Assembly (NCBI GenBank): GCA_965612745.1
Contig: CBFDTD010000002.1
Location: forward strand, 36 to 64,035
From: an uncultured bacterium
GTDB lineage: Bacteria; Chloroflexota; Anaerolineae; B4-G1
Direction: 5' to 3'
DNA: 64,000 bases
Shown here: positions 21,488-32,886 of the stretch, piece after piece
Layout: each line of letters begins with the position of its first letter
Position numbering within the stretch: the stretch's first letter is position 1
Translations under genes and position numbers: made by a program
The notes under the pieces: model-generated
Database searches by the model: none
What the model saw: the letters and a program-made list of their open reading frames with translations, nothing else
What the model was told of the DNA's origin: nothing

Positions 21488-21501
21488 ACGACAGGAGGAC
21501 T

Positions 21502-21954
21502 ATGGTCAAGATCAGACTGCGCCGTGTAGGCAAGAAAAAGCAACCCAGTTACCGGGTGGTGGTGGCCGATGCGCGAGCCCCACGCGATGGGCGCTTCATC
21601 GAGGTCATCGGCTTTTACAACCCACGCACCGACCCGGAGACGGTGAGAATTAAAGAAGACCGGGCCTTGCACTGGCTGAGCGTTGGAGCGCAGCCCACCG
21701 AACCGGTGGCCCGGTTGCTGAAGAAACAGGGCACACTGGCCCGCTTCGAGCGGCTTAAGCAGGGCGAGCCTCTGGAGGCACTGTTGGCCGAGGCGGAGGA
21801 AGCGGCCCAGGCCGCGCCGGAGGTCAGTCCCAAAACCCGCCGAGAGTTGGCAATATCTGCGGCGGAGGAGCCTGCGGAAGAGCCGGCCGTCGAGCCCGAA
21901 ATGGAGCCTGTTGAAGTCGGAGAGGAGAGTGAGGAGGGAGAGACGGAAGAGTAG
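21502..21954 (+). CDS. rpsP: 30S ribosomal protein S16 with acidic C-terminal extension
   Basis: [34 protein letters not shown]... Confidence 0.95.
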
Positions 21955-22049
21955 CCCGTGTCCCGTCGCAGTGGAACTTTGCTCCCCCACTGCGTCTCCA
22001 TACAGTCTATAGGATCTACATCCACTACTCCAGTGAGGGAGGAGCAACT

Positions 22050-22286
22050 ATGGCTTCGCTGAAGGAATTGGTCGAGTTCATCGCCAAGTCGTTGGTAGAT
22101 GATCCATCCCAGGTGTATGTCTCCGAGATCGAGGGGGAGACCTCGGTGATCCTGGAACTGCGGGTCGGCCCGGAGGACATGGGCCGTGTGATCGGCAGGG
22201 GTGGGCGCACCGCGAACGCTATGCGCACACTCGTCCGGGTGCTCGCCGCCAAACAAGGGAAGCGAGCCACCCTCGAAATCGTCTAA
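22050..22286 (+). CDS. KH-domain RNA-binding protein (UPF0109/YlqC-like)
   Basis: [19 protein letters not shown] motif; conserved position between rpsP and rimM. Confidence 0.85.
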
Positions 22287-22292
22287 GCGCCG

Positions 22293-22883
22293 ATGGGTGG
22301 TACCACACAATGTGATAGCGAGGGTGATGGGGGCTCAGGGGAAGTGCATACGCCTGAGCCCCGCTATTTGGCGGTCGGGCGGGTGCTGCGGCCGCACGGC
22401 GTGCGGGGTGAACTGCGCATTGAAGTTCTCACCGATCACCCCGAACGGCTGCAACAGCACGCCCATTTCTACCTCGCCTCCCCGAACTCCCCTGAAACGG
22501 TGCGGCGCTATCCGGTCGAGAAGTTGCGCCGATCCAGAAAAGTGCTGCTGCTCAAGTTGGGCGGCTGCGACGACCGGAACGCCGCCGAGGAACTGCGTGG
22601 TCAACTGGTGCAGATACTCTTTGAGGAGGCTGCACCACTTGAGGAAGGTGAGTACTATCACTTTCAACTCATTGGCGTGAAGGTGGAGACGGAAAGCGGC
22701 GAGGCGCTGGGCCGGATAGTCGAAGTGCTGGAGACCAAAGCCAACGACGTCTACGTCGTGCATGGGCCACGGGGCGAGGTGCTCCTGCCAGCGGTGGAAG
22801 ACGTGGTGCTTGAACTCGACCTGGAGTTGAAGCGGATGGTGGTGCGCTTGCTGCCGGGCATGTTGGGAGGAGACAACACATGA
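22293..22883 (+). CDS. rimM: 16S rRNA processing protein RimM (start uncertain, possibly GTG near 22341)
   Basis: LAVGRVLRPHGVRGELRIE... plus a PRC barrel C-terminus. Confidence 0.8.
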   Translation: MGGTTQCDSEGDGGSGEVHTPEPRYLAVGRVLRPHGVRGELRIEVLTDHPERLQQHAHFYLASPNSPETVRRYPVEKLRRSRKVLLLKLGGCDDRNAAEELRGQLVQILFEEAAPLEEGEYYHFQLIGVKVETESGEALGRIVEVLETKANDVYVVHGPRGEVLLPAVEDVVLELDLELKRMVVRLLPGMLGGDNT

Positions 22884-23989
22884 ACGACCTGCGCTATTGG
22901 GTTGGATTCAACGTCGTGCGTGGTATCGGCCCCACGCGGCTGCGGGCATTGCTCGATTACTTCGGGGACGCGGAACGGGCCTGGCATGCCCCGGCCGAGG
23001 CGCTGCGCCGCGCCGGACTGGACCGCCGCTCGCTGGAGAATCTGCTGGCGACCCGGGCCACGCTCGATCTGGATCGGGAGTTGGAGCGGATTGCGGCCGC
23101 TGGCGCACAGGTACTCACGTGGGAAAGCCCCGGCTATCCCTGCCTCCTCCGCGAAATCTCCAACCCCCCCCCGGTGCTCTACGTCAAGGGCACGCTGACG
23201 GAGGACGATGCCTGGGCAGTAGCGGTCGTCGGCACGCGGCGGGCCTCGGCTTACGGGCGGGAGGTGACCCGCCGCCTGACCATAGCACTGGCACGTAGCG
23301 GTATCACCATCGTCAGTGGGCTGGCGCGAGGAATTGATGCTGAGGCGCACCGGGCAGCGCTGAAGGCAGGGGGACGCACTATCGCTGTGCTAGGCTGCGG
23401 CATTGACCGGGTCTACCCTCCGGAGCACCGTGGGCTGGCCGAGGAGATCATCGCGCACGGGGCGCTGGTGAGCGACTATCCACTGGGGACGCCGCCGGAA
23501 GGGGTCAATTTCCCCCCACGCAACCGCATCATTAGCGGGTTGAGTTTGGGCGTGCTCATCACCGAGGCCGGGAAGGGAAGCGGAGCGCTCATCACCGCCG
23601 ACTACGCCGCCGAGCAAGGGCGGGATGTCTTCGCCGTGCCGGGTTCTATCCTGATGCGCGGTAGCGCCGGTACCAATGCGCTCATCCAGGAGGGAGCCAA
23701 GTTAGTGCTCGGCCCGGAAGACATCCTGGAGGAACTGAATCTGACGATGGTGGCCGAGCAGATGGAGGCACGTCAGGTGCTCCCGGCCGACGAAACCGAA
23801 GCGGCGCTGTTGACCTACCTCTCAACCGAGCCAACCCACGTGGACGAACTTCGGCAGCAGGTGGGGTTACCCATTGCGCAGGTGACCAGCACGCTGGCGC
23901 TGATGGAGTTGAAGGGGATGGTGCGCCAGGTGGGGGGGATGAAGTACGTCGTGGCTCGCGAGCCGGGCGTGGAGTACGTGGTGGATTAG
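22880..23989 (+). CDS. dprA: DNA processing protein DprA/Smf
   Basis: Rossmann-like core (VVGTRRASAYG, GLARGIDAEAH, GCGIDRVYP) and C-terminal winged helix. Confidence 0.9.
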   Translation: MNDLRYWVGFNVVRGIGPTRLRALLDYFGDAERAWHAPAEALRRAGLDRRSLENLLATRATLDLDRELERIAAAGAQVLTWESPGYPCLLREISNPPPVLYVKGTLTEDDAWAVAVVGTRRASAYGREVTRRLTIALARSGITIVSGLARGIDAEAHRAALKAGGRTIAVLGCGIDRVYPPEHRGLAEEIIAHGALVSDYPLGTPPEGVNFPPRNRIISGLSLGVLITEAGKGSGALITADYAAEQGRDVFAVPGSILMRGSAGTNALIQEGAKLVLGPEDILEELNLTMVAEQMEARQVLPADETEAALLTYLSTEPTHVDELRQQVGLPIAQVTSTLALMELKGMVRQVGGMKYVVAREPGVEYVVD

Positions 23990-23992
23990 AAG

Positions 23993-24100
23993 TTGGTAGG
24001 TTGGTAAATTGGTAGATTGGTAGATTGGTAGATTGGTAAATTGGTAGATTGGTAGAGCGATGGTTGGGACCAACGTACCAGTTTACCAGTTTACCAATTA
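23993..24100. repeat. TTGGTA(R)A octamer array (about 8 units), central palindrome GGTTGGGACCAAC, then 3 inverted TACCA(R)TT units; long imperfect hairpin
   Basis: read directly from the sequence immediately after the dprA stop. Confidence 0.75.
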
Positions 24101-24121
24101 CCCATATAGCGGAGGGCAGAA

Positions 24122-25192
24122 TTGTACTACGCATTGATTATGGCCGGAGGGGTTGGGACACGCTTGTGGCCCCTCAGCCGCCGCCATCGCCCCAAGCAGT
24201 CGCTCAGGCTGGTCGGGGAGCGCACGATGTTCGAGCACGCGGTGGATCGGCTCGCGCCCCTGTTCCAGCCGGAGCAGATTTTCGTCGTCACCGGCGCTGA
24301 GCACGTGGAGGCACTGGCAGCGCAAGCGCCCGATTTGCCGCCGGAGAACTTCATTATCGAGCCGGAGGGCCGTGGCACTGCGCCTTGTATCGGGCTGGGG
24401 ACGATTCACCTGCGTCGGCAGGACCCCGAGGCGATTATGGCCGTGCTCACCGCCGATCACTTCATCGCCGACACAGCGCGCTTCCGCCGGGTGCTGGTTG
24501 CAGCGGCCCAAGTCGCTGAAGAGGGCCACCTGGTCACGCTGGGGATTGCGCCTTCGTCCCCCTCAACCGGTTTCGGCTACATCAAGCAGGGAGAGAGCCT
24601 GGGCACGGTGGAGGGCTTTCCGGTCTTCCGCGCCGAGCGGTTCACCGAGAAACCGAGCCCGGAGACGGCGCTTCACATGGTCGAGAGCGGGGAATACTCG
24701 TGGAACAGCGGCATGTTCATCTGGCGCGTGGACCGCATCCTGGAGGAGTTCCAGCGCCAGATGCCGGAATTCTACGTGCAACTGGCGGAGATAGAGGCCA
24801 CGCTGGGCACATCCGGCTACGAGGCGACACTGAACCGCGTCTGGCCGCAGGTGACCAAGCAGACAATTGACTACGGGGTGATGGAGGGGGCCGAGGACGT
24901 GACGGTCATCCCGGTGGACATCGGCTGGTCAGATGTGGGCAGTTGGACCAGTCTTTCGGAGTTGCTGCCGGCCGACGAGGAAGCAAACGTCGTCGTCGGC
25001 CCGCACGTGGGGATTGATACGCACGAGACGTTGGTCTTCGGCAGAAAGCGGCTCATCGCCACCATCGGGCTGGAAGGGCTGGTAATCGTGGACACGGAGG
25101 ACGCGCTGTTGGTCTGTCCCAGGGAGCGTGAACAGGAGGTGCGGGAGATCGTTCGGCAACTGGAGGAGAGCGGACGCAGCAAATGGCTTTGA
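24122..25192 (+). CDS. mannose-1-phosphate guanylyltransferase-like nucleotidyltransferase
   Basis: ALIMAGGVGTRLWPLS N-terminus; start TTG at 24122 or ATG at 24139. Confidence 0.8.
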   Translation: MYYALIMAGGVGTRLWPLSRRHRPKQSLRLVGERTMFEHAVDRLAPLFQPEQIFVVTGAEHVEALAAQAPDLPPENFIIEPEGRGTAPCIGLGTIHLRRQDPEAIMAVLTADHFIADTARFRRVLVAAAQVAEEGHLVTLGIAPSSPSTGFGYIKQGESLGTVEGFPVFRAERFTEKPSPETALHMVESGEYSWNSGMFIWRVDRILEEFQRQMPEFYVQLAEIEATLGTSGYEATLNRVWPQVTKQTIDYGVMEGAEDVTVIPVDIGWSDVGSWTSLSELLPADEEANVVVGPHVGIDTHETLVFGRKRLIATIGLEGLVIVDTEDALLVCPREREQEVREIVRQLEESGRSKWL

Positions 25193-25677
25193 GCCCGGCC
25201 GACTTCGACCCCCAGGTGGTGGCCGAATACGACGTCACTGCAGAGACTCTCGACCGGGTGGTGCGCTACTTGCGGCTGCTACAAGGCCCCGACGCCCCGG
25301 CGCTGGCCGACATCGCCATCGGCGGCTACTACGGCACGGCGGCGCTCTTGCACGAGGTGATCGAATTGAACATCCTGCTGAAACGGGAGCCGGGGCTGTT
25401 GGAGATGGACGAGGAGAGTGCATTGAACTTTTGGCACGCTAACACAGATGCGCACATCACGGCGCTGGTAGCGGAGTACACCTATCTGCAGCGCCGAATC
25501 CGGCAGGTGTTAGGCGAGAAGGTGAGCGTTGGCGCTTTACTGTGGGTCAACGCTGACGAGCACGACTTCGCCATGCTGGCCACGTCAGATTGGCCGGGGC
25601 CTTTGCGTATACCTGATGCGGCGGAGGTTGACCGAGCGCGACGTTTGCTCGGGTGTTTAAAGGAGAGAACTCTATGA
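25183..25677 (+). CDS. hypothetical protein A (164 aa) of a duplicated two-gene module
   Basis: ORF with good GC3; ATGA overlap with gene B. Confidence 0.7.
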   Translation: MALSPADFDPQVVAEYDVTAETLDRVVRYLRLLQGPDAPALADIAIGGYYGTAALLHEVIELNILLKREPGLLEMDEESALNFWHANTDAHITALVAEYTYLQRRIRQVLGEKVSVGALLWVNADEHDFAMLATSDWPGPLRIPDAAEVDRARRLLGCLKERTL

Positions 25678-26096
25678 GAGTTAAATACAGATTGGTAGAG
25701 AAATGGCTGGCCGACACAGGTGTCTGGTTTCCCTGGGGGATGTTCTACGAGAACTGCAGCGGGATGTTTCCAGAGCGTACACTGTTGACCCGAGCGATCC
25801 CTGACGATGACCGCCGAAAGGCACGTTACTTTGGACAGCGGATCGAACGATTTCGCCCCACTGTGGAAGAGGCGGAGATCGTATTAGGCGAGTACGCGGA
25901 CCGCTATCGCGTCCTGCCCGAGGTCCGCACCGTCGAGGGTGAGAACTACCGCGAGATACGCGACCGGCTGTGGGAGGTGATCTTCGAGGAGATGGACAAG
26001 CGGCGGGCGGAACGCCGGGTCGAGTACGCCGTGCCGGAGCCGACCTACGTACCGTTGCGGGAAAAGTCCGAGGGAGCGGTTGAGACGGAGTCATAA
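25674..26096 (+). CDS. hypothetical protein B (about 140 aa) of the duplicated module
   Basis: start MRVKYRLVEKW coupled to the A stop codon. Confidence 0.7.
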   Translation: MRVKYRLVEKWLADTGVWFPWGMFYENCSGMFPERTLLTRAIPDDDRRKARYFGQRIERFRPTVEEAEIVLGEYADRYRVLPEVRTVEGENYREIRDRLWEVIFEEMDKRRAERRVEYAVPEPTYVPLREKSEGAVETES

Positions 26097-26098
26097 GA

Positions 26099-26596
26099 GT
26101 GAGGCAACTTGCGCCGGCCGACTTCGACCCCCGGGTGGTGGCCGAATACGGCATCACCGCAGAGACTCTCGACCGGGTGGTGCGCTACCTGCGGCTGCTG
26201 CAAGGCCCCGACGCCCCGGCGCTGGCCGACATCGCCATCGGCGGCTACTACGGCACGGCGGCGCTCCTGCACGAGGTGGTCGAACTGGACATCCTACTGG
26301 AACGGGAGCCGGGGCTGTTGAATTTGAAGTGCAGGCAGATGCGGGCTCTCTGGGAGCGCAACAAAGACGCCCACGTGGCGGCTCTGGTGGCCGAGTACAC
26401 TTATCTCCAGCGTAGAATCAGGGAAGTGCTTGGCGAAGAGGTGGAGATCGGTGCTCTGCTATGGGCCAATACTACCAAGCGCGACTTTGACCTGCTTGCC
26501 GAATCGGATTGGTCAGGCCGCCTGTACGTCCCCGATGCAGCAGCGGTTGATCGAGCGAGGCGACTACTGGCCCGCCTGAAGGAGGTGGGACTGTGA
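26099..26596 (+). CDS. hypothetical protein A' (paralog of 25183-25677)
   Basis: the first ~75 aa are nearly identical to A; the remainder is about 60-65% identical. Confidence 0.7.
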   Translation: MRQLAPADFDPRVVAEYGITAETLDRVVRYLRLLQGPDAPALADIAIGGYYGTAALLHEVVELDILLEREPGLLNLKCRQMRALWERNKDAHVAALVAEYTYLQRRIREVLGEEVEIGALLWANTTKRDFDLLAESDWSGRLYVPDAAAVDRARRLLARLKEVGL

Positions 26597-27012
26597 TTGT
26601 GAGATACAGAGTGGTCGAGGATTGGCTGGACGATGAAGGTGTCTGGTTCCCCTGGGGCGTGTTTTATGAGAATCGCGGCAGCGACCTCGCGGAGTATACC
26701 CTCCTGATACGCGCTATCCCGGATGATGACCGGCGGAAGGGGCGCTACTTCGACCGGCGTATCCGAGAGTTACGTCCCAGCATCGAGGAGGCTGAAGTCG
26801 TGTTAGGCGAGTACGCGGACCGCTATCGCGTCCTGCCCGAGGTCCGCACCGTCGAGGGTGAGAACTACCGCGAGATACGCGACCGGCTGTGGGAGGTGAT
26901 CTTCGAGGAGATGGACAAGCGGCGGGCGGAACGCCGGGTCGAGTACGCCGTGCCGGAGCCGACCTACGTACCGCTGCGTGAAGGAGCAGAGGAGCCGGAG
27001 GAGGAAGACTGA
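26593..27012 (+). CDS. hypothetical protein B' (paralog of 25674-26096)
   Basis: the C-terminal ~70 aa are encoded by DNA 100% identical to B over about 170 bp; the N-terminus is about 55% identical. Confidence 0.7.
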   Translation: MIVRYRVVEDWLDDEGVWFPWGVFYENRGSDLAEYTLLIRAIPDDDRRKGRYFDRRIRELRPSIEEAEVVLGEYADRYRVLPEVRTVEGENYREIRDRLWEVIFEEMDKRRAERRVEYAVPEPTYVPLREGAEEPEEED

Positions 27013-27019
27013 GATCAGC

Positions 27020-29440
27020 ATGGAAGCCTACTGTGTAAAGTGCAAAACCAAACGTGAGATGCAGGATCCCAGGCCGGTGTTCACCAGCAAGGGAATGCCG
27101 GCCACACAGGGGTTTTGCCCGGTGTGTGGCACGAAGATGTTCAAGATGGGTCGTACCTCAGCCCACGAGGGACTCGACCCGGAAGGGAACACCGTCGTGT
27201 CCAAAGCCAAAGCCGAACTGGCGAAGAAGCCCAAGATGGTGATCGTCGAGTCGCCGGCCAAAGCGCGCACGGTGGGGAGGTTCCTGGGCAGGGACTACAT
27301 TGTCCGCGCTTCAGTAGGGCACGTGCGCGACCTGCCCTCCAATCGGATGGGAGTGGACATTGACGACGATTTCCGGCCTCACTATGTCATCCCTGCCAAG
27401 CGCAAGGACGTGGTGAGGGAACTGCGGGCGGAGGTCAAGAACTCGTCCGAGATTTATCTGGCGACCGATCCGGACCGGGAGGGGGAGGCTATCTCCTGGC
27501 ATCTGACTCAGGCGCTCAAATCGGCCATCGGGCGGCGGCCCGTGCACCGCGTCGAGTTCCACGAGATCACGCGCGACGCCATCGAGCACGCCTTCGCCCA
27601 CCCACGCAAGATTGATATGCGGCGGGTGGAGGCGCAGCAGGCGCGGCGCATCCTCGACCGCCTCGTCGGCTACACGCTCAGCCCACTGCTGCGCGACAAA
27701 CTTGGGCGGCGCGGGCTCTCGGCGGGGCGCGTGCAGTCGGTGGCCGTGCGGCTGGTCGTCGAGCGGGAGCGGGAGATCGAAGCCTTCGTGCCCGTCGAGT
27801 ACTGGTCCATAGAAGCGGAGTTGGCCAAACAGGAAGAGGCAAAGCGCAGTTTCATCGCCCGACTGCATCGCATTCGTGGGGAGGAGGTGGAACTCCACAG
27901 CGAGGCCGAGACGCAGGCGGTCGTGGCCGAACTGGAGAAGGCCATCTACGCTGTGACGAAGGTGAAGGAGGGGCAGCGGCGGCGCAGACCCGCGCCTCCC
28001 TTCATCACCAGCACGATGCAGCAGGAGGCCTCGCGGCGGCTGGGGTTCACGGCCCGGCGCACGATGCGCTTCGCCCAGCAACTGTACGAGGGGGTGGACC
28101 TGGGTGACGGCCCGGTCGGTCTGATCACCTATATGCGCACCGACAGCACCAACGTGGCGGAGCAGGCGCAGGCGGAGGCGAGGGAGTACATCGTCCAGCA
28201 ATACGGCGAGAAGTTCGTACCGCCCAAGCCGCCGCGCTACAAGACACGGGCCAAGGGGGCCCAGGAGGCCCACGAGGCCATCCGCCCCACCAGCGTATTT
28301 CGCACTCCCAAGTCGCTTAAGCCGTACCTGGATCGGAACCAGTACCGGCTGTACGAACTGATCTGGCGGCGCTTCGTCGCCAGCCAAATGGCGCCGGCGG
28401 TGTACGACACTATCGCTGTGGAGATCCTGGCCGGCCCCCCCGAGGGAGAGAAGCCCTACCTCTTTCGCGCCAGCGGATCCAGCCTGCGCTTCAAGGGCTT
28501 TCTGGCCGTGTACAGGGAGGCGAAGGACGAAGACGAAAGGGGAAAGGACGCCAAGGAGGAGGAGCGTAAGCGGGAGGAGATCCCGCCGCTCACGGTGGAC
28601 GAGGTGCTCGACCTGGTGCGGCTGCTACCGGAGCAGCACTTCACCCAGCCACCCCCGCGCTACAGCGAGGCCACTCTGGTGCGGGCGCTGGAGGAGTACG
28701 GCATCGGCCGGCCCAGCACCTACGCCCCGATCATGTCCACCATCCAGCAGCGGGGGTACGTCGAGCGGCGCGACGGGCGGCTGCATCCCACCGAACTGGG
28801 GATCATCGTCAACGACTTGCTGGTTGGGCACTTCCCAGATTACATTGACGTCGGCTTCACAGCCCAGATGGAGGAGGATCTGGACCTAATCGCCAGCGGT
28901 AAGCGAGAGTGGGTGCCGGTACTGCGCGATTTCTATGAGCCATTCTCTGCCGCGCTGTCCCAAGCCCGAGAGAAAATGCCCACCGTCCAGATGGGCAACG
29001 AGCCGACGGGTGAACTGTGCCCGCAGTGTGGGCACCCGCTGATTTACAAGTATGGGCGCTTCGGCAAGTTCATCGGCTGCAGCAACTTCCCCGCGTGCCG
29101 TTTCCGCAAGCCGATCCTGGTCAAGACCGGCGCCAAGTGCCCGGAGTGCGGGGGCGACCTGGTGGAGAAACGGACGCGGCGCGGGCGCACCTTCTACGGT
29201 TGTGCCAACTACAGGGCCGACGACCCTGACTCGTGCAGGTTTGCTGTGTGGAAGCGTCCCCTGCCGCAGCCGTGCCCGGAATGTGGCGGGTTGCTCACCG
29301 AGGCGCGCAAAGGCTGGGCCAAGTGCATCGCCTGTGAGGAGGAGTTCGAGATCGAGAGCCTGCCTCGGACACAGGCCGAGCCACACGGGGCTGAAGGCGC
29401 CACACTGGGAGAGCAAAGCCCCTCTGGGACCGAATCTTAG
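27020..29440 (+). CDS. topA: DNA topoisomerase I with N-terminal C4 zinc ribbon and C-terminal Zn ribbons
   Basis: Toprim (KMVIVESPAKARTV), catalytic region; N-terminal CVKCKTK...CPVCGTK; C-terminal CPQCGH...CPECGG...CPECGG; start at the ATG (MEAYCVKC) rather than the GTG at 26978. Confidence 0.9.
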   Translation: MEAYCVKCKTKREMQDPRPVFTSKGMPATQGFCPVCGTKMFKMGRTSAHEGLDPEGNTVVSKAKAELAKKPKMVIVESPAKARTVGRFLGRDYIVRASVGHVRDLPSNRMGVDIDDDFRPHYVIPAKRKDVVRELRAEVKNSSEIYLATDPDREGEAISWHLTQALKSAIGRRPVHRVEFHEITRDAIEHAFAHPRKIDMRRVEAQQARRILDRLVGYTLSPLLRDKLGRRGLSAGRVQSVAVRLVVEREREIEAFVPVEYWSIEAELAKQEEAKRSFIARLHRIRGEEVELHSEAETQAVVAELEKAIYAVTKVKEGQRRRRPAPPFITSTMQQEASRRLGFTARRTMRFAQQLYEGVDLGDGPVGLITYMRTDSTNVAEQAQAEAREYIVQQYGEKFVPPKPPRYKTRAKGAQEAHEAIRPTSVFRTPKSLKPYLDRNQYRLYELIWRRFVASQMAPAVYDTIAVEILAGPPEGEKPYLFRASGSSLRFKGFLAVYREAKDEDERGKDAKEEERKREEIPPLTVDEVLDLVRLLPEQHFTQPPPRYSEATLVRALEEYGIGRPSTYAPIMSTIQQRGYVERRDGRLHPTELGIIVNDLLVGHFPDYIDVGFTAQMEEDLDLIASGKREWVPVLRDFYEPFSAALSQAREKMPTVQMGNEPTGELCPQCGHPLIYKYGRFGKFIGCSNFPACRFRKPILVKTGAKCPECGGDLVEKRTRRGRTFYGCANYRADDPDSCRFAVWKRPLPQPCPECGGLLTEARKGWAKCIACEEEFEIESLPRTQAEPHGAEGATLGEQSPSGTES

Positions 29441-29708
29441 CCGTTTTGCCCTTTCTCGCTAATTCGCTGGTTCGCCGAGGGATGGTTCAGAATGAATTGA
29501 CACTTTCTCACGCGGCCCGCACGGGCATGAAGTGCCCGTGCTACGAAGTGGCGCCCGACGAGTCGGGCTTACGCCGCAACACAGCAGGAAAACGGTCTTT
29601 GCGGCAAGTAAGGGGGATTGATCCCCCGCTGCTCTGTAGCCCGGCGACTTCATCGCCGGGCGGCGGTGTGCAGCAGACATCAAAGTGTCACCCTATTTTC
29701 GCCTGTAA

Positions 29709-30641
29709 TTGAACCATCCCCTCGCCGATATGGATATGAACGAGTTGCTAGAGCAATTTCTGACCCACCTGCGGGTAACCAGGAACGCCTCGCCTTATAC
29801 GATCAAGAACTATAGCAACGACATCGGCCAGTTTCTGGACTACTGTCGGACCAAGGGGGTGGGTTCGCTGGAGCAGGTGGACCGTTCGCTGCTGCGGGGT
29901 TACCTGGCGGAACTGGACGCCGTCGGCTACGTCAAAGCCAGCATCGCCCGCCGCGTGGCGGAACTGCGCTCTTTCGGCGACTTCCTGGTGCGGGAGGGAG
30001 TGCTGGAGCGCAACACCTTTCGCACGGTCAGCGCCCCCCGTGTCCCCAAACGGCTGCCGCACTACCTGACAGTCGCCGAGGTGGAGGCGCTGCTGGCGGT
30101 GCCCGATACGTCCACCCCACGGGGCCTGCGCGACCGCGCCATCATCGAGGTGCTGTACGCAGCGGGCCTGCGGGTCAGTGAGTTGGTGGGGTTGAACGTG
30201 GCGGATGTGGATCTGCATCAGGCCCTGGTGCACGTGGTGGGGAAGGGGGGCAAGGAGCGCATCGGGCTGTTGGGGCGACCGGCGGTGCAGGCATTGCGGG
30301 CGTATTTGAAGGTGGGGCGTCCGGCGTTGCTGGGGCAGCGGCCAACCAACGCGCTGTGGCTCAACCACCGAGGTGGTCGCCTGACGACGCGCGGGGTGGC
30401 GCTGATATTGAGTAGGGCGGGCAAGCAAGCAGGCATCCGCACGCCTGTCTCTCCCCACATTCTGCGCCACTCCTTCGCCACGCATCTTCTGGATGGAGGT
30501 GCCGACCTGCGTATAGTGCAGGAATTGTTGGGCCACGCCAATCTCGCCACAACCCAAATCTACACTCACGTCAGTCAAAGTCGGGCGCGGGAGGTTTACA
30601 TGCGAGCACACCCGCGGGCTGGAACCTCCGATTTGCCCTAG
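29709..30641 (+). CDS. xerC: tyrosine recombinase XerC/XerD family
   Basis: R...HxxR...Y active-site pattern (ILRHSFATHLL...HANLATTQIYTHV). Confidence 0.85.
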   Translation: MNHPLADMDMNELLEQFLTHLRVTRNASPYTIKNYSNDIGQFLDYCRTKGVGSLEQVDRSLLRGYLAELDAVGYVKASIARRVAELRSFGDFLVREGVLERNTFRTVSAPRVPKRLPHYLTVAEVEALLAVPDTSTPRGLRDRAIIEVLYAAGLRVSELVGLNVADVDLHQALVHVVGKGGKERIGLLGRPAVQALRAYLKVGRPALLGQRPTNALWLNHRGGRLTTRGVALILSRAGKQAGIRTPVSPHILRHSFATHLLDGGADLRIVQELLGHANLATTQIYTHVSQSRAREVYMRAHPRAGTSDLP

Positions 30642-30745
30642 TCGCCGCTTTATGGTAAAGTATTAGTGTGCTGGTGGCACCTGTAGTACAATGAGCATAG
30701 TGAGGATGCCTGCATAGGGAGATAGGCATAGACAAGGGGGCAAAG

Positions 30746-31804
30746 ATGGACAACATCCTGCAATTCGTTCAGCAGCGCAGGACCTCGGTGGCGCTGATCG
30801 GCGGGGTCGTGCTGGGGCTGCTCCTGGGATTGGCTATCGGCTGGTGGTGGTGGCCGGTCCAGTGGACTAATTCCACGCCCAGCAACCTGCGCTCCGATTT
30901 CCAGAGTGATTACATCCTCTGGGTTGCCGAGCACTACGCAACCACCGGTGACCTGGAATGGGCGCGCAGCAAATTGGGTGTGGAGTACTGGAAGGAAGGC
31001 CAACTGGCCGAGACGCTGGAGCGGCTGGCGCAGGATCGCGGCGGGCAGGAGGCGGTGCGCCTGCGAGCCTTGAAGCAGGCCCTGGAGCCTCAACCCGAAG
31101 CCACACCGGTCGCGCCGACGGTGAGTTTTTGGGCAAGGCTGCGCCCGATAGCGGCAGTTTGCGGTGTTGGCTTGTTGGTGCTGGCGCTTGTGGGGGGAGC
31201 GTTGCTCCTCTTCAGCCGATGGAGCAGTCAACGTGCCGCGCGGGGGCCGGTGGAGCGGGGCAGGGGGATAGCCGAAGTCCCTCCCCTCGAACGGGTTTCC
31301 TGGGGTGCTGAAGGCCCGCCCCTGGCTCAGTTCGTCACGACTTATAAACTGGGGGATGATCACTACGATCCCTCGTTTAGCATCGAACTGGACAGCGGCG
31401 AGTTCATGGGCGAGTGCGGCGTGGGCATCTCGGAGACCATCGGCGTGGGCGCACCCAACAAAGTCACCGCTTTTGAGATTTGGCTGTTTGACAAGAACGA
31501 CATCCGCACTGTGACCAAGGTGCTGATGTCGGACTATGCTTTCCACGACGAGGCGTTGCGTGCCAAATTGGCCCCCAAGGGAGAGCCGGTGCTGGCCGAG
31601 GTGGGGAAGGATGTGATCCTGGAGACAAAGATGCTGCGTTTGCGGGCGCGCGTCGTGGAGGCGGAGTACGGGACGGGGAATCTGCCCCCTGACAGTTTCT
31701 TCGAGAGATTGACGGTGGACCTGGCAGCCTGGGTCAAGCCGGAGGAGGAGGAAACACGGCCAGCGCCTGAGGTTGGTGCTCCCGTTACGCCGCCTACACT
31801 GTAG
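30746..31804 (+). CDS. hypothetical membrane protein (2 TM, WWWWP motif)
   Basis: 352-aa ORF, N-terminal TM helix plus a second TM around residue 130. Confidence 0.55.
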   Translation: MDNILQFVQQRRTSVALIGGVVLGLLLGLAIGWWWWPVQWTNSTPSNLRSDFQSDYILWVAEHYATTGDLEWARSKLGVEYWKEGQLAETLERLAQDRGGQEAVRLRALKQALEPQPEATPVAPTVSFWARLRPIAAVCGVGLLVLALVGGALLLFSRWSSQRAARGPVERGRGIAEVPPLERVSWGAEGPPLAQFVTTYKLGDDHYDPSFSIELDSGEFMGECGVGISETIGVGAPNKVTAFEIWLFDKNDIRTVTKVLMSDYAFHDEALRAKLAPKGEPVLAEVGKDVILETKMLRLRARVVEAEYGTGNLPPDSFFERLTVDLAAWVKPEEEETRPAPEVGAPVTPPTL

Positions 31805-32663: not shown

Positions 32664-32740
32664 GGTGGGTGTGGCCTAATGGTTAAGGCACCTGGTTGTG
32701 GCCCAGGAGATTGTGGGTTCGAATCCCATCACTCACCCCA
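32664..32740 (+). tRNA. tRNA-His (GTG) with G-1 and encoded CCA
   Basis: manual folding: acceptor GTGGGTG/CACTCAC, D arm GCC/GGC, anticodon loop TTGTGGC, T arm GTGGG TTCGAAT CCCAT. Confidence 0.85.
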
Positions 32741-32741
32741 G

Positions 32742-32768
32742 AAAGCCGGACTTGATCCGGCTTTCATT
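32742..32768 (+). terminator. rho-independent terminator AAAGCCGGA-cttgat-CCGGCTTTC followed by a T-rich tail
   Basis: perfect 9-bp stem followed by ATTAT. Confidence 0.7.
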
Positions 32769-32779
32769 ATACACCAACC

Positions 32780-32852
32780 GCCCCCGTAGCTCAACGGATA
32801 GAGCGTCGGACTTCGAATCCGCAGGTTGCGCGTTCGAATCGCGCCGGGGGCG
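32780..32852 (+). tRNA. tRNA-Arg (TCG)
   Basis: acceptor GCCCCCG/CGGGGGC, D arm GCTC/GAGC, anticodon loop CTTCGAA, T arm GCGCG TTCGAAT CGCGC; one T-C mismatch at the top of the anticodon stem. Confidence 0.7.
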
Positions 32853-32886
32853 CCTGGGAGAACGGGCATAGCACGTCGGGTGTGTT

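What the first reader, a model, noticed from the sequence alone, without database searches (positions are those of the whole stretch)
25183..27012. Tandemly duplicated two-gene module of unknown function with mosaic identity (gene-conversion tracts)
Genes A (164 aa) and B (~140 aa), coupled by an overlapping ATGA, are repeated immediately downstream as A' and B'. Identity is patchy. The first ~75 codons of A and A' are nearly identical at the DNA level, and the last ~170 bp of B and B' are 100% identical (25880-26050 versus 26803-26970). The rest is only 55-65% identical at the protein level. That pattern is what recurrent gene conversion between diverged paralogs produces. Neither protein carries a motif I can assign; B has a conserved W-rich N-terminus (VWFPWG.FYEN) and an acidic tail. 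A coupled, duplicated, diversifying pair beside topA, xerC and tRNAs is typical of immunity/toxin-like or defence modules, but function is unknown.
Basis: partly seen in the sequence, partly recalled or inferred. Interest (0 to 1): 0.7.

Follow-up and report, generated by a model that had tools for sequence, protein, structure and literature searches.

The report
Tandem orphan gene pair, gene conversion
Two anciently diverged versions of an uncharacterised, always-paired two-gene module found only in Anaerolineae sit side by side inside a housekeeping operon and are being partly homogenised by gene conversion; what the two proteins do is still unknown, and nothing ties them to toxin or defence systems.

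Summary
The layout is A1 (25183-25677), B1 (25674-26096), A2 (26099-26596), B2 (26593-27012). This is a 919-bp unit repeated in tandem, 76% identical overall. One tract is 94% identical (25195-25401). One run of 171 nt is exactly identical (25884-26054 = 26803-26973). The block between them is about 60-70% identical.

Gene conversion is well supported. Synonymous differences between the copies are 0.11 and 0.05 in the two tracts but 0.69-0.77 in the middle block. The background between species is 0.37-0.53. The middle blocks group with different orthologous types in other genomes. Three near-identical strain contigs carry seven differences in B2's tract, and the window has B1's base at all seven.

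The copies are therefore two old types placed in tandem, not a fresh duplication.

A and B are orphan families. They have no Pfam, NCBIfam, PHROG, PADLOC or PDB sequence match and no fold match, despite confident models. They occur only in Anaerolineae. An intact A is always followed by B. They sit in stable positions inside housekeeping operons and are absent from the viral contigs scanned.

The toxin/defence reading is not supported. My working model is a cognate A:B complex in which A carries an invariant His/Glu site. Biochemical function remains unknown.

The parts
24122..25192 (+). Upstream operon gene: manC-like NTP transferase (mannose-1-phosphate guanylyltransferase type). Its stop overlaps the A1 start.
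   Evidence: ORF. Orthologues in relatives carry PF00483 and PF22640. The manC-to-A adjacency is conserved in about 45 loci.
25183..25677 (+). A1, 164 aa, type I. All-alpha orphan protein with invariant Y29, H57, E58, E61, H91, E98 and N123.
25674..26096 (+). B1, 140 aa, type I N-terminal half with a converted C-terminal half. Beta-rich N-terminus, helices, and a disordered acidic tail.
26099..26596 (+). A2, 165 aa, type II.
   Evidence: Its C-terminal half groups with L001 at 77% but is only 62% identical to A1.
26593..27012 (+). B2, 139 aa, type II. Its stop lies 8 nt before the likely topA ATG at 27020.
   Evidence: N-terminal half 88% to L001_B, 64% to B1.
25195..25401 (+). Homogenised tract 1, copy 1 (N-terminal half of A); partner is 26114-26320. 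94% nucleotide identity.
   Evidence: pS 0.11 against 0.24-0.36 for the same segment between genomes, 0.37-0.53 in flanking genes between species, and 0.77 in the next segment.
26114..26320 (+). Homogenised tract 1, copy 2.
25402..25883 (+). Variable block, copy 1 (C-terminal half of A1 plus N-terminal half of B1). Type I, GC 0.56-0.57.
   Evidence: identity profile; pS 0.69-0.77; groups with orthologues, not with copy 2; GC.
26321..26802 (+). Variable block, copy 2 (C-terminal half of A2 plus N-terminal half of B2). Type II.
25884..26054 (+). Conversion tract 2, inferred donor copy (C-terminal half of B1). 171 nt identical to 26803-26973.
   Evidence: L021's B1 tract is identical to the window's.
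26803..26973 (+). Conversion tract 2, inferred recipient copy (C-terminal half of B2). At seven positions (26844, 26883, 26916, 26949, 26951, 26968, 26969) the window has the B1 base, while three sister-strain contigs differ.
27020..29440 (+). Downstream operon gene topA (type IA topoisomerase with an N-terminal DUF5679 zinc ribbon). The longest ORF starts at GTG 26978.
   Evidence: Pfam annotations of orthologues.

Best explanation
SHOWN.
- The window carries two different, anciently diverged types (I and II) of a self-contained two-gene module, A then B. They lie head to tail between manC and topA, inside the rimM-dprA-manC-...-topA-xerC gene string.
- Each type has orthologues at the same locus in other Anaerolineae.
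- The contiguous middle block of each unit (C-terminal half of A plus N-terminal half of B) is saturated at synonymous sites between the copies. It is older than the species splits.
- The two outer segments (N-terminal half of A, C-terminal half of B) have been homogenised within the genome by gene conversion.
- The last event copied at least 126 bp of B1 over B2. It happened after this strain split from strains that are about 99% identical to it.

INFERRED.
- A and B are made in coupled amounts (overlapping stop and start codons, each with its own Shine-Dalgarno sequence) and work as a cognate A:B complex.
- A is the active partner. Its N-terminal half carries an invariant His57-Glu58-x-x-Glu61 ... 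His91 ... Glu98 ... Asn123 constellation. These residues lie on helices 48-68, 88-110 and 116-123 of the model. His57/Glu61 are spaced i,i+4 and His91/Glu98 i,i+7, so each pair should share a helix face. This looks like a metal-binding or hydrolytic site.
- B is its binding partner or modulator.
- The variable block encodes the type-specific A-B interface. Co-resident modules are thereby kept from cross-talking, and that is why conversion stops at the block's edges.
- The module is a non-essential, vertically inherited, lineage-specific accessory function that rides on host operons. It is not a mobile defence island.
For: Structure and conversion:
- pS between the copies is 0.113 (A N-terminal half) and 0.046 (B C-terminal half), against 0.769 and 0.694 in the middle.
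- Background pS between the window and relatives in dprA, manC, xerC and topA is 0.37-0.53.
- In segment trees A1/B1 group with L025, L028 and the first pair of L026. A2/B2 group with L001. In the C-terminal half of B the two window copies are sisters at 100%.
- Contigs L019, L020 and L021, from three samples, share 7 differences in B2's tract that the window lacks. At all seven the window matches B1.
- The B1-to-A2 junction is present in L020 and L021.

The module as a unit:
- Of 48 intact A genes with enough downstream sequence, 44 are followed by B within 60 nt. Three are followed by an A-like::B fusion. One is followed by a very divergent B.
- Natural fusions exist: P0137 (full A fused to B) and P0134, P0186 and P0187 (A-like N-terminal domain fused to B).
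- Invariant residues hold down to 22% identity.
- Both models are confident.
- dN/dS is 0.07-0.38 in every segment where dS could be estimated.
- In context 1, distances in A's C-terminal half and B's N-terminal half correlate at r=0.85. The two outer segments correlate at r=0.80. Other pairs give 0.69-0.72.
- The arrays in L026, L010 and L062 show the same layout, an old middle with younger flanks.

Host integration:
- Two stable contexts dominate: manC-[AB]n-topA in about 45 loci and FTCD_C-[AB]n-FolD-Fhs in about 27.
- No sigma-70-like promoter was found in 21500-31000, and no convincing terminator lies inside the manC-to-topA stretch. The one terminator-like pattern there, at 26646 inside B2, is within chance expectation.
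- No viral copies were found.

Dispensability: deletions or frame-splits of the module occur in L014, L022-24, L081, L013, L016, L056, L067, L078 and L080.
Against: - No biochemical or homology evidence exists for any activity.
- The metal-site reading rests only on conservation and helical spacing. Model coordinates could not be inspected.
- No A:B complex prediction could be run.
- The A-C-half/B-N-half correlation may reflect physical linkage alone.
- Conversion may stop at the variable block simply because divergence there blocks recombination, not because of selection.
- The neighbours differ between lineages (manC/topA, folate C1 genes, aldehyde dehydrogenase, a Ser/Thr kinase). That gives no functional clue and is also what a selfish module would show.
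- The perfect 171-nt identity could be an assembly consensus error.
Confidence: 0.6

Rival explanations
1. Toxin-antitoxin-like, immunity or defence module. A is a toxic effector and B its cognate neutraliser. Several specificity types are kept because each B neutralises only its own A.
For: - The genes are small, translationally coupled and always paired.
- Distribution is patchy and restricted to one lineage, and decay is frequent.
- In some loci A is disrupted while B stays intact: L022-24 and L081. In L014 a deletion removed the C-terminal part of A and most of B together. Both fit loss of the toxin before or along with the antidote.
- The module sits in four unrelated operon contexts.
- Tandem arrays hold unlike types.
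- The catalytic-looking residues are lost in the A-like domain that is fused to B.
- B has a disordered acidic tail.
Against: - No match to any PADLOC, Pfam, NCBIfam or PHROG model.
- No DNA-binding antitoxin domain, and no sigma-70-like promoter of its own. The genes overlap housekeeping neighbours.
- The position is syntenic across relatives whose DprA is only 63-69% identical. That is unusual for toxin-antitoxin modules.
- No mobile-element genes lie nearby and no viral copies were found.
- Both proteins are acidic.
- The family is tiny: 78 clusters for A at 50% identity among 1.84 billion representatives. Known toxin-antitoxin families are broadly spread (my own knowledge).
Confidence: 0.25
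2. The exact 171-nt identity, or the tandem itself, is an assembly artefact of a metagenome-assembled genome. The cause would be a collapsed or mis-threaded repeat, or a chimera of two strains that each carry one module.
For: - Only the window's assembly has the tract at 100%. L019, L020 and L021 show 7 differences.
- Other assemblies of the same strain break inside B1 or A2: L019, L101, L102 and L103. The repeat clearly troubles short-read assemblers.
Against: - The B1-tail to A2-head junction is a unique sequence. It is found in the window and in two independent contigs from other samples.
- manC-A-B-A-B-topA arrays also exist in another genome with a different second type (L026). They also occur in the folate context (L010, L061, L062).
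- Even the sister strains show 96% identity in that tract against about 65% in the adjacent block. The mosaic therefore does not depend on this assembly.
Confidence: 0.1
3. A recent in-situ duplication followed by fast divergence of the middle. In this view the similar tracts are similar only because of strong purifying selection, with no gene conversion.
For: The N-terminal half of A is conserved in every homologue, at 78-92% amino-acid identity. Protein-level similarity there needs no conversion.
Against: - Synonymous sites tell the opposite story. pS is 0.05-0.11 in the tracts against 0.69-0.77 in the middle and 0.37-0.53 between species.
- Each middle block has closer orthologues in other genomes than in its neighbour.
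- dN/dS in the middle is 0.13 where it could be estimated (the N-terminal half of B). In the C-terminal half of A, dS is saturated. This does not look like positive selection.
- The strain polymorphism shows a discrete replacement event.
Confidence: 0.03

Closest known systems
Concerted evolution of tandem or dispersed bacterial paralogues by gene conversion (for example tufA/tufB in Salmonella; rRNA operons). Recalled from my own knowledge.
   Same: - Paralogues lie in direct orientation.
- Tracts have far less synonymous divergence than the rest.
- Segment phylogenies are discordant.
- A discrete tract differs between near-identical strains.
   Different: - Here conversion is partial. It stops at a contiguous variable block that spans the boundary between two genes.
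- The two units are different old types rather than copies of one gene.
Polymorphic toxin / immunity cassettes (CdiA-CT/CdiI, Rhs-CT/RhsI and their orphan arrays). Recalled from my own knowledge.
   Same: - The layout is conserved 5' part, then a variable block covering the 3' end of gene 1 and the start of gene 2.
- Several old types occupy one locus.
- Tandem arrays hold unlike types.
- The conserved flanks could serve as recombination anchors.
   Different: - A is a 164-aa cytoplasmic protein. It has no visible signal peptide and no secretion, delivery or repeat domain in its sequence. No signal-peptide predictor was run.
- The invariant catalytic-looking residues lie in the conserved half, not the variable half.
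- Only half of B is variable.
- No toxin or immunity family matches.
Type II toxin-antitoxin operons
   Same: - Two small, overlapping, co-oriented genes that are always found together.
- Non-essential, often decayed, and sometimes present in more than one copy.
   Different: - No recognisable toxin or antitoxin fold, and no DNA-binding domain.
- No sigma-70-like promoter of its own was found.
- Embedded in housekeeping operons and syntenic over deep divergence.
- Confined to one bacterial class.
Orphan (no-Pfam) lineage-specific protein families of uncultured Chloroflexota
   Same: Every database name for these proteins is 'hypothetical protein'. All sources are Anaerolineae, Anaerolineales, Caldilineales or Chloroflexota MAGs and metagenomes.
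   Different: Unlike most such orphans, both proteins give confident structure models that match no solved fold. They also show an unusually clear population-genetic structure.

Membership tests
Tandem paralogues undergoing gene conversion (concerted evolution) | Two homologous units in the same genome | tested here: met
   919-bp period in direct orientation.
Tandem paralogues undergoing gene conversion (concerted evolution) | Tracts whose synonymous divergence is far below that of the rest of the unit and of the species background | tested here: met
   pS 0.046 and 0.113 against 0.69-0.77, with background 0.37-0.53. Run-length permutation test.
Tandem paralogues undergoing gene conversion (concerted evolution) | Phylogenetic discordance between segments: paralogues are sisters in converted tracts, and orthologues are sisters elsewhere | tested here: met
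   Neighbour-joining trees and identity matrices by segment.
Tandem paralogues undergoing gene conversion (concerted evolution) | Donor and recipient identifiable from strain polymorphism | tested here: met
   Seven sites in B2 carry the B1 base in the window only. This is subject to read-level confirmation.
Type II toxin-antitoxin system | Two small adjacent co-transcribed genes | tested here: met
   Overlapping ATGA and GTGA codons. Of 48 intact A genes, 44 have B within 60 nt and the other 4 have a fusion or a divergent B.
Type II toxin-antitoxin system | Toxin belongs to a known toxin family or fold | tested here: not met
   No Pfam, NCBIfam, PADLOC, PHROG or PDB match for A or B.
Type II toxin-antitoxin system | Antitoxin has a DNA-binding domain and the operon is autoregulated from its own promoter | tested here: not met
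   No HTH, RHH or AbrB hit. No sigma-70-like promoter in the region. A1's start overlaps manC's stop. The promoter scan covers sigma-70 consensus only.
Type II toxin-antitoxin system | Growth arrest by one partner, rescued by the other | not testable with these tools
   Needs expression experiments.
Known anti-phage defence systems (PADLOC-DB v2) | Significant match of at least one component to a defence-system HMM | tested here: not met
   The only hit is B1 to REase_II at E=0.011 and 13 bits. It is absent in B2, A1 and A2.
Known anti-phage defence systems (PADLOC-DB v2) | Location in a variable defence island or on a mobile element | tested here: not met
   Flanks are conserved housekeeping genes in about 45 and about 27 loci for the two main contexts. 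No copies in IMG/VR.
Polymorphic toxin / immunity cassettes | Variable block spanning the toxin's C-terminus and the adjacent immunity gene, flanked by conserved sequence | tested here: met
   The variable block is A residues 75-164 plus B residues 1-69. Only half of B is included.
Polymorphic toxin / immunity cassettes | Large secreted or delivered toxin with trafficking or repeat domains | tested here: not met
   A is 164 aa and acidic, with no detected domains and no visible hydrophobic leader (and its sequence). No signal-peptide predictor was run.
Zincin-like metallopeptidases (HExxH) | HExxH motif on an active-site helix packed against a beta-sheet | tested here: not met

The most novel reading that the evidence does not exclude
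A-B is a previously undescribed polymorphic two-protein system with two new folds. A would be a metal-dependent effector held in check by a type-specific partner B. Several ancient specificity types would be kept at one chromosomal locus. The interface block would be held intact while its conserved flanks recombine. In short, a new toxin-antidote or self/non-self style system private to Anaerolineae.
Probability: 0.25. Interest if true: 0.7.

Novelty: new variant of a known kind. Interest (0 to 1): 0.45.

Why it matters
- The window gives a clean natural example of partial concerted evolution. Donor, recipient and a minimum tract length can be read directly from strain variation.
- It also shows a boundary where conversion stops at a block that spans two genes.
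- It defines two orphan protein families. A has about 80 clusters at 50% identity and B about 115 clusters at 90% identity, out of billions of proteins searched. Both have confident models that match no solved structure, and A has a sharply conserved His/Glu site. They are good targets for structural and biochemical work in a poorly studied phylum.
- If the variable block does encode cognate specificity, the locus would be a compact system for studying how paralogous protein pairs are kept from cross-talking.
- If the module is only a dispensable accessory complex, the finding is a well-documented but ordinary case of duplication plus conversion.

Tried and rejected
Homology and fold searches that found nothing meaningful:
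- Pfam, NCBIfam, PADLOC and PHROG scans of all four proteins.
- Pfam scans of every member of both alignments and of distant members. Only scattered chance-level hits came up. Examples are K-box, Mut7-C in 2 of 28 members, and REase_II at 13 bits.
- PDB sequence and profile searches with four alignments. Nothing below E=0.09.
- Foldseek of A against BFVD viral structures. Best E was 0.89.
- The AlphaFold-database library (afdb50) was unavailable.
- An exhaustive profile search of 1.84 billion representatives with A. Only the family itself was found.

Other dead ends:
- A literature search for the HExxE motif. Only unrelated metalloprotease-mutant and iron-sensor papers turned up.
- Rfam on the whole window. 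Only the two tRNAs were found.

Ideas considered and dropped:
- HEPN, HD, hemerythrin, ferritin-like, zincin and homing-endonuclease readings of A. None of their defining motifs or folds fits A's sequence or its all-alpha model. This rests on my own reasoning.
- A functional link to the neighbours (manC/topA). The pair sits in four unrelated contexts.
- An island-integrase reading of xerC. It is syntenic in all relatives.
Full report
**1. What is in the sequence**

Four plus-strand ORFs fill 25183-27012 with no spacer longer than 2 nt.

| Gene | Coordinates | Length | Start |
|---|---|---|---|
| A1 | 25183-25677 | 164 aa | ATG; overlaps the stop of the upstream manC-like gene |
| B1 | 25674-26096 | 140 aa | ATGA overlap with A1 |
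| A2 | 26099-26596 | 165 aa | GTG |
| B2 | 26593-27012 | 139 aa | GTGA overlap with A2 |

- Each start is preceded by a GGAG/AGGAG element (read).
- The likely topA start (ATG 27020, opening a DUF5679-type zinc ribbon) follows 8 nt after B2.
- No sigma-70-like promoter was found in 21500-31000, and no convincing terminator lies between manC and topA. The pairs therefore look like internal genes of a long operon.
- The unit repeats with a 919-bp period.
- A global alignment gives 76% identity overall. There is a 94% tract at 25195-25401 and an exact 171-nt run at 25884-26054 = 26803-26973. The region between them is about 60-70% identical.
- Shuffling alignment columns never gave a run longer than 61 (by sites) or 72 (by codons).

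**2. Is the tandem real?**

- Two independent metagenome contigs, L020 (99.6% identical) and L021 (98.5%), cross the unique junction from the B1 tail to the A2 head.
- Other assemblies of the same strain break inside B1 or A2. That is what a near-identical repeat does to short-read assemblers.
- Heterotypic A-B-A-B arrays also occur at the same locus in another genome (L026). They occur in a different operon context as well (L010, L061, L062).
- The arrangement is therefore biological.

**3. Gene conversion**

Nei-Gojobori proportions of synonymous differences (pS) between the window's two copies are as follows.

| Segment | Residues | pS between copies |
|---|---|---|
| A, N-terminal half | 23-74 | 0.113 |
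| A, C-terminal half | 75-160 | 0.769 |
| B, N-terminal half | 1-69 | 0.694 |
| B, C-terminal half | 70-128 | 0.046 |

- The same statistic for dprA, manC, xerC and topA between the window and its relatives is 0.37-0.53.
- The middle block is therefore older than these species splits. The outer tracts are much younger.
- Segment-wise trees agree.
  - In the middle block A1/B1 group with L025, L028 and the first pair of L026 at 64-85% amino-acid identity (79-85% to L025 and L028). I call this type I.
  - A2/B2 group with L001 at 77-88% (type II).
  - The second pair of L026 groups with L003 (type III).
  - The window's own copies are only 62-64% identical there.
  - In the C-terminal half of B the window's copies are identical, while the other type I copies (L028, L026 first pair, L022) are 69-81% identical to them.
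- Strain comparison gives the most direct evidence.
  - Three contigs from three different samples (L019, L020, L021) are 98.5-99.6% identical to the window.
  - All three carry the same seven differences in B2's tract, at 26844, 26883, 26916, 26949, 26951, 26968 and 26969.
  - The window has B1's base at all seven. L021's B1 tract equals the window's.
- This is the footprint of a B1-to-B2 conversion of at least 126 bp in the window's strain. It lies on top of older homogenisation, since the tract is already 96% identical in the sister strains.
- The alternative is a consensus error in this one assembly. I rate that at about 10%. It would remove only the latest event.
- For the N-terminal half of A the case rests on pS of 0.11 between the copies. 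The same segment gives 0.24-0.36 between genomes.
- dN/dS is 0.07-0.38 in all segments where dS could be estimated, so both genes are under purifying selection.
- The converted tracts are also more GC-rich (0.63-0.67) than the variable blocks (0.56-0.59). That would fit GC-biased conversion, but I did not test it.

**4. What the module is**

*Family size and range*
- A and B each define a small orphan family.
- Single-sequence searches of 5.8 billion clusters found 59 clusters for A and 47 for B.
- A profile of diverse B sequences found 115 clusters.
- An exhaustive profile search with A against 1.84 billion 50%-identity representatives found only 78, many of them fragments.
- None carries a Pfam domain or any name other than 'hypothetical protein'.
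- Every named source is an Anaerolineae, Anaerolineales, Caldilineales or Chloroflexota MAG.

*Pairing*
- I surveyed 93 non-redundant loci from reference genomes and metagenomes.
- Of 48 intact A genes with at least 450 nt downstream, 44 are followed by B within 60 nt.
- Three are followed by a fusion of an A-like N-terminal domain to B.
- One is followed by a B too divergent for the HMM but visible as an overlapping ORF beginning MIVRYR.
- A distant member, P0137, is a full A fused to B.
- Obligate pairing, translational coupling and two kinds of natural fusion all point to a physical A:B complex. This is inference.

*Genomic context*

| Context | Approximate number of loci |
|---|---|
| rimM-dprA-manC-[AB]n-topA-xerC | 45 |
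| FTCD_C-[AB]n-FolD-Fhs | 27 |
| [AB]-aldehyde dehydrogenase (Caldilineales) | 4 |
| Ser/Thr kinase-[AB], with a PQQ-type beta-propeller gene downstream where sampled | 4 |

- The position is stable within each lineage. The first context persists among relatives whose DprA is only 63-69% identical.
- No transposase or phage genes accompany the module. xerC is part of the conserved string.
- A scan of IMG/VR found no copy.
- This picture fits vertical inheritance inside host operons, with occasional relocation. It does not fit a mobile island.
- The module is dispensable. Internal deletions or frame-splits occur in L014, L022-24, L081, L013, L016, L056, L067, L078 and L080.

**5. Structure and likely mechanism**

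*Models*
- AlphaFold2 models are confident. A has pLDDT 94.7 and nine helices.
- B has pLDDT 82.8. It has a three-stranded N-terminal sheet, two helices, a small hairpin, a long helix and a disordered acidic tail.
- Foldseek of A against viral models gives nothing.
- PDB profile searches give nothing.

*Conserved residues*
- Across A homologues down to 22% identity the invariant residues are Y29, H57, E58, E61, L65, H91, E98, L102, L119 and N123.
- H57/E61 are spaced i,i+4 on helix 48-68. H91/E98 are spaced i,i+7 on helix 88-110.
- I read this as a metal-binding or hydrolytic site. This is inference. I could not inspect coordinates.
- In the A-like::B fusions the site is lost (H57 to N, E58 to R). 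That would suit a non-catalytic scaffold copy.
- B's invariant residues (R6, W18, G22, E88) do not suggest catalysis.

*The variable block*
- It is one contiguous DNA stretch encoding the C-terminal half of A and the N-terminal half of B.
- In the manC/topA context these two segments co-vary at r=0.85. The two outer segments co-vary with each other at r=0.80. Mixed pairs give 0.69-0.72.
- The arrays in L026, L010 and L062 show the same old-middle, younger-flank pattern.

*Working model (about 0.6 overall)*
- The block encodes a type-specific A-B interface.
- Modules living in the same genome are of unlike type and so do not cross-talk.
- Conversion acts freely on the shared outer halves. It is stopped at the block by divergence, by selection, or by both.

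**6. Rivals**

- *Toxin-antidote or defence-like module (about 0.25).* It is compatible with the pairing, the decay pattern (A disrupted while B is kept), the unlike types and the several operon contexts. No family, fold, promoter, mobility or distribution evidence supports it.
- *Assembly artefact.* Covered in section 3.
- *Recent duplication with fast divergence, or selection without conversion.* Both are contradicted.

**7. Comparison with the known, and novelty**

- The process is textbook concerted evolution.
- The layout resembles polymorphic toxin/immunity cassettes: conserved flanks around a variable core that spans two genes, with several old types at one locus.
- The defining features of those systems, and of type II toxin-antitoxin systems, were tested and not met.
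- The proteins themselves match nothing known.
- I file this as a new variant of a known kind: a mosaic tandem paralogue array built from two undescribed protein families. Interest is moderate, 0.45.
- The evolutionary analysis is clean and the families are good structural targets. However, function is unknown, and orphan gene pairs are common in uncultured phyla.

Noticed in passing
window 23979-24096 (dprA-manC intergenic region): An 8-nt tandem array, (TTGGTAGA) x8, lies at 23993-24056. About 20 nt later come 2.6 copies of TACCAGTT (24076-24096), which is close to its reverse complement. This is the only sizeable non-coding stretch upstream of manC-A-B-A-B-topA. It could be a regulatory or structured element.
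   Followed up: partly
window 27020-29440 (topA); L001 6874-9228; L028 844-3171: Among close relatives topA falls into two divergent forms. pN against the window is 0.19 in L001 and L028 but 0.07-0.08 in L003 and L022, and the difference is spread along the whole gene. The flanking dprA and xerC are uniformly similar. The split does not follow the A-B module type.
   Followed up: partly
L049 6510-7253; L074 2030-2773; L076 499-1245 (proteins P0134, P0186, P0187): One lineage has a full-length A followed by a 251-257 aa protein. That protein fuses an A-like N-terminal domain to a complete B. In the A-like domain the conserved H57/E58 and YY residues are replaced (N/R and EV).
   Followed up: partly
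L014 6001-6355; L022 4779-5414: These are decay products of the module at the syntenic site. In L014 a deletion joins A residues 1-96 to B residues 112-136, so the whole variable block is gone. L022, L023 and L024 (three samples) lack A residues about 36-117 but keep an intact B.
   Followed up: partly
window 25400-25999 and 26400-26799: GC content drops to 0.56-0.59 in the two variable blocks. It is 0.63-0.67 in the homogenised tracts and the flanking genes. This would fit GC-biased gene conversion or a different history for the blocks.
   Followed up: no
L010 6242-6660 versus L061: In the folate-context arrays the variable block of the first module is 93-98% identical between two genomes. 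Its conserved flanks are only 73-90% identical. This is the reverse of the within-genome pattern. It suggests that the flanks are scrambled by conversion from the neighbouring copy while the block stays true to type.
   Followed up: partly
window 32665-32854: tRNA-His(GTG) and tRNA-Arg(TCG) lie 5.6 kb downstream of the module, beyond topA and xerC. They are not adjacent to the module and show no sign of being an integration site.
   Followed up: yes
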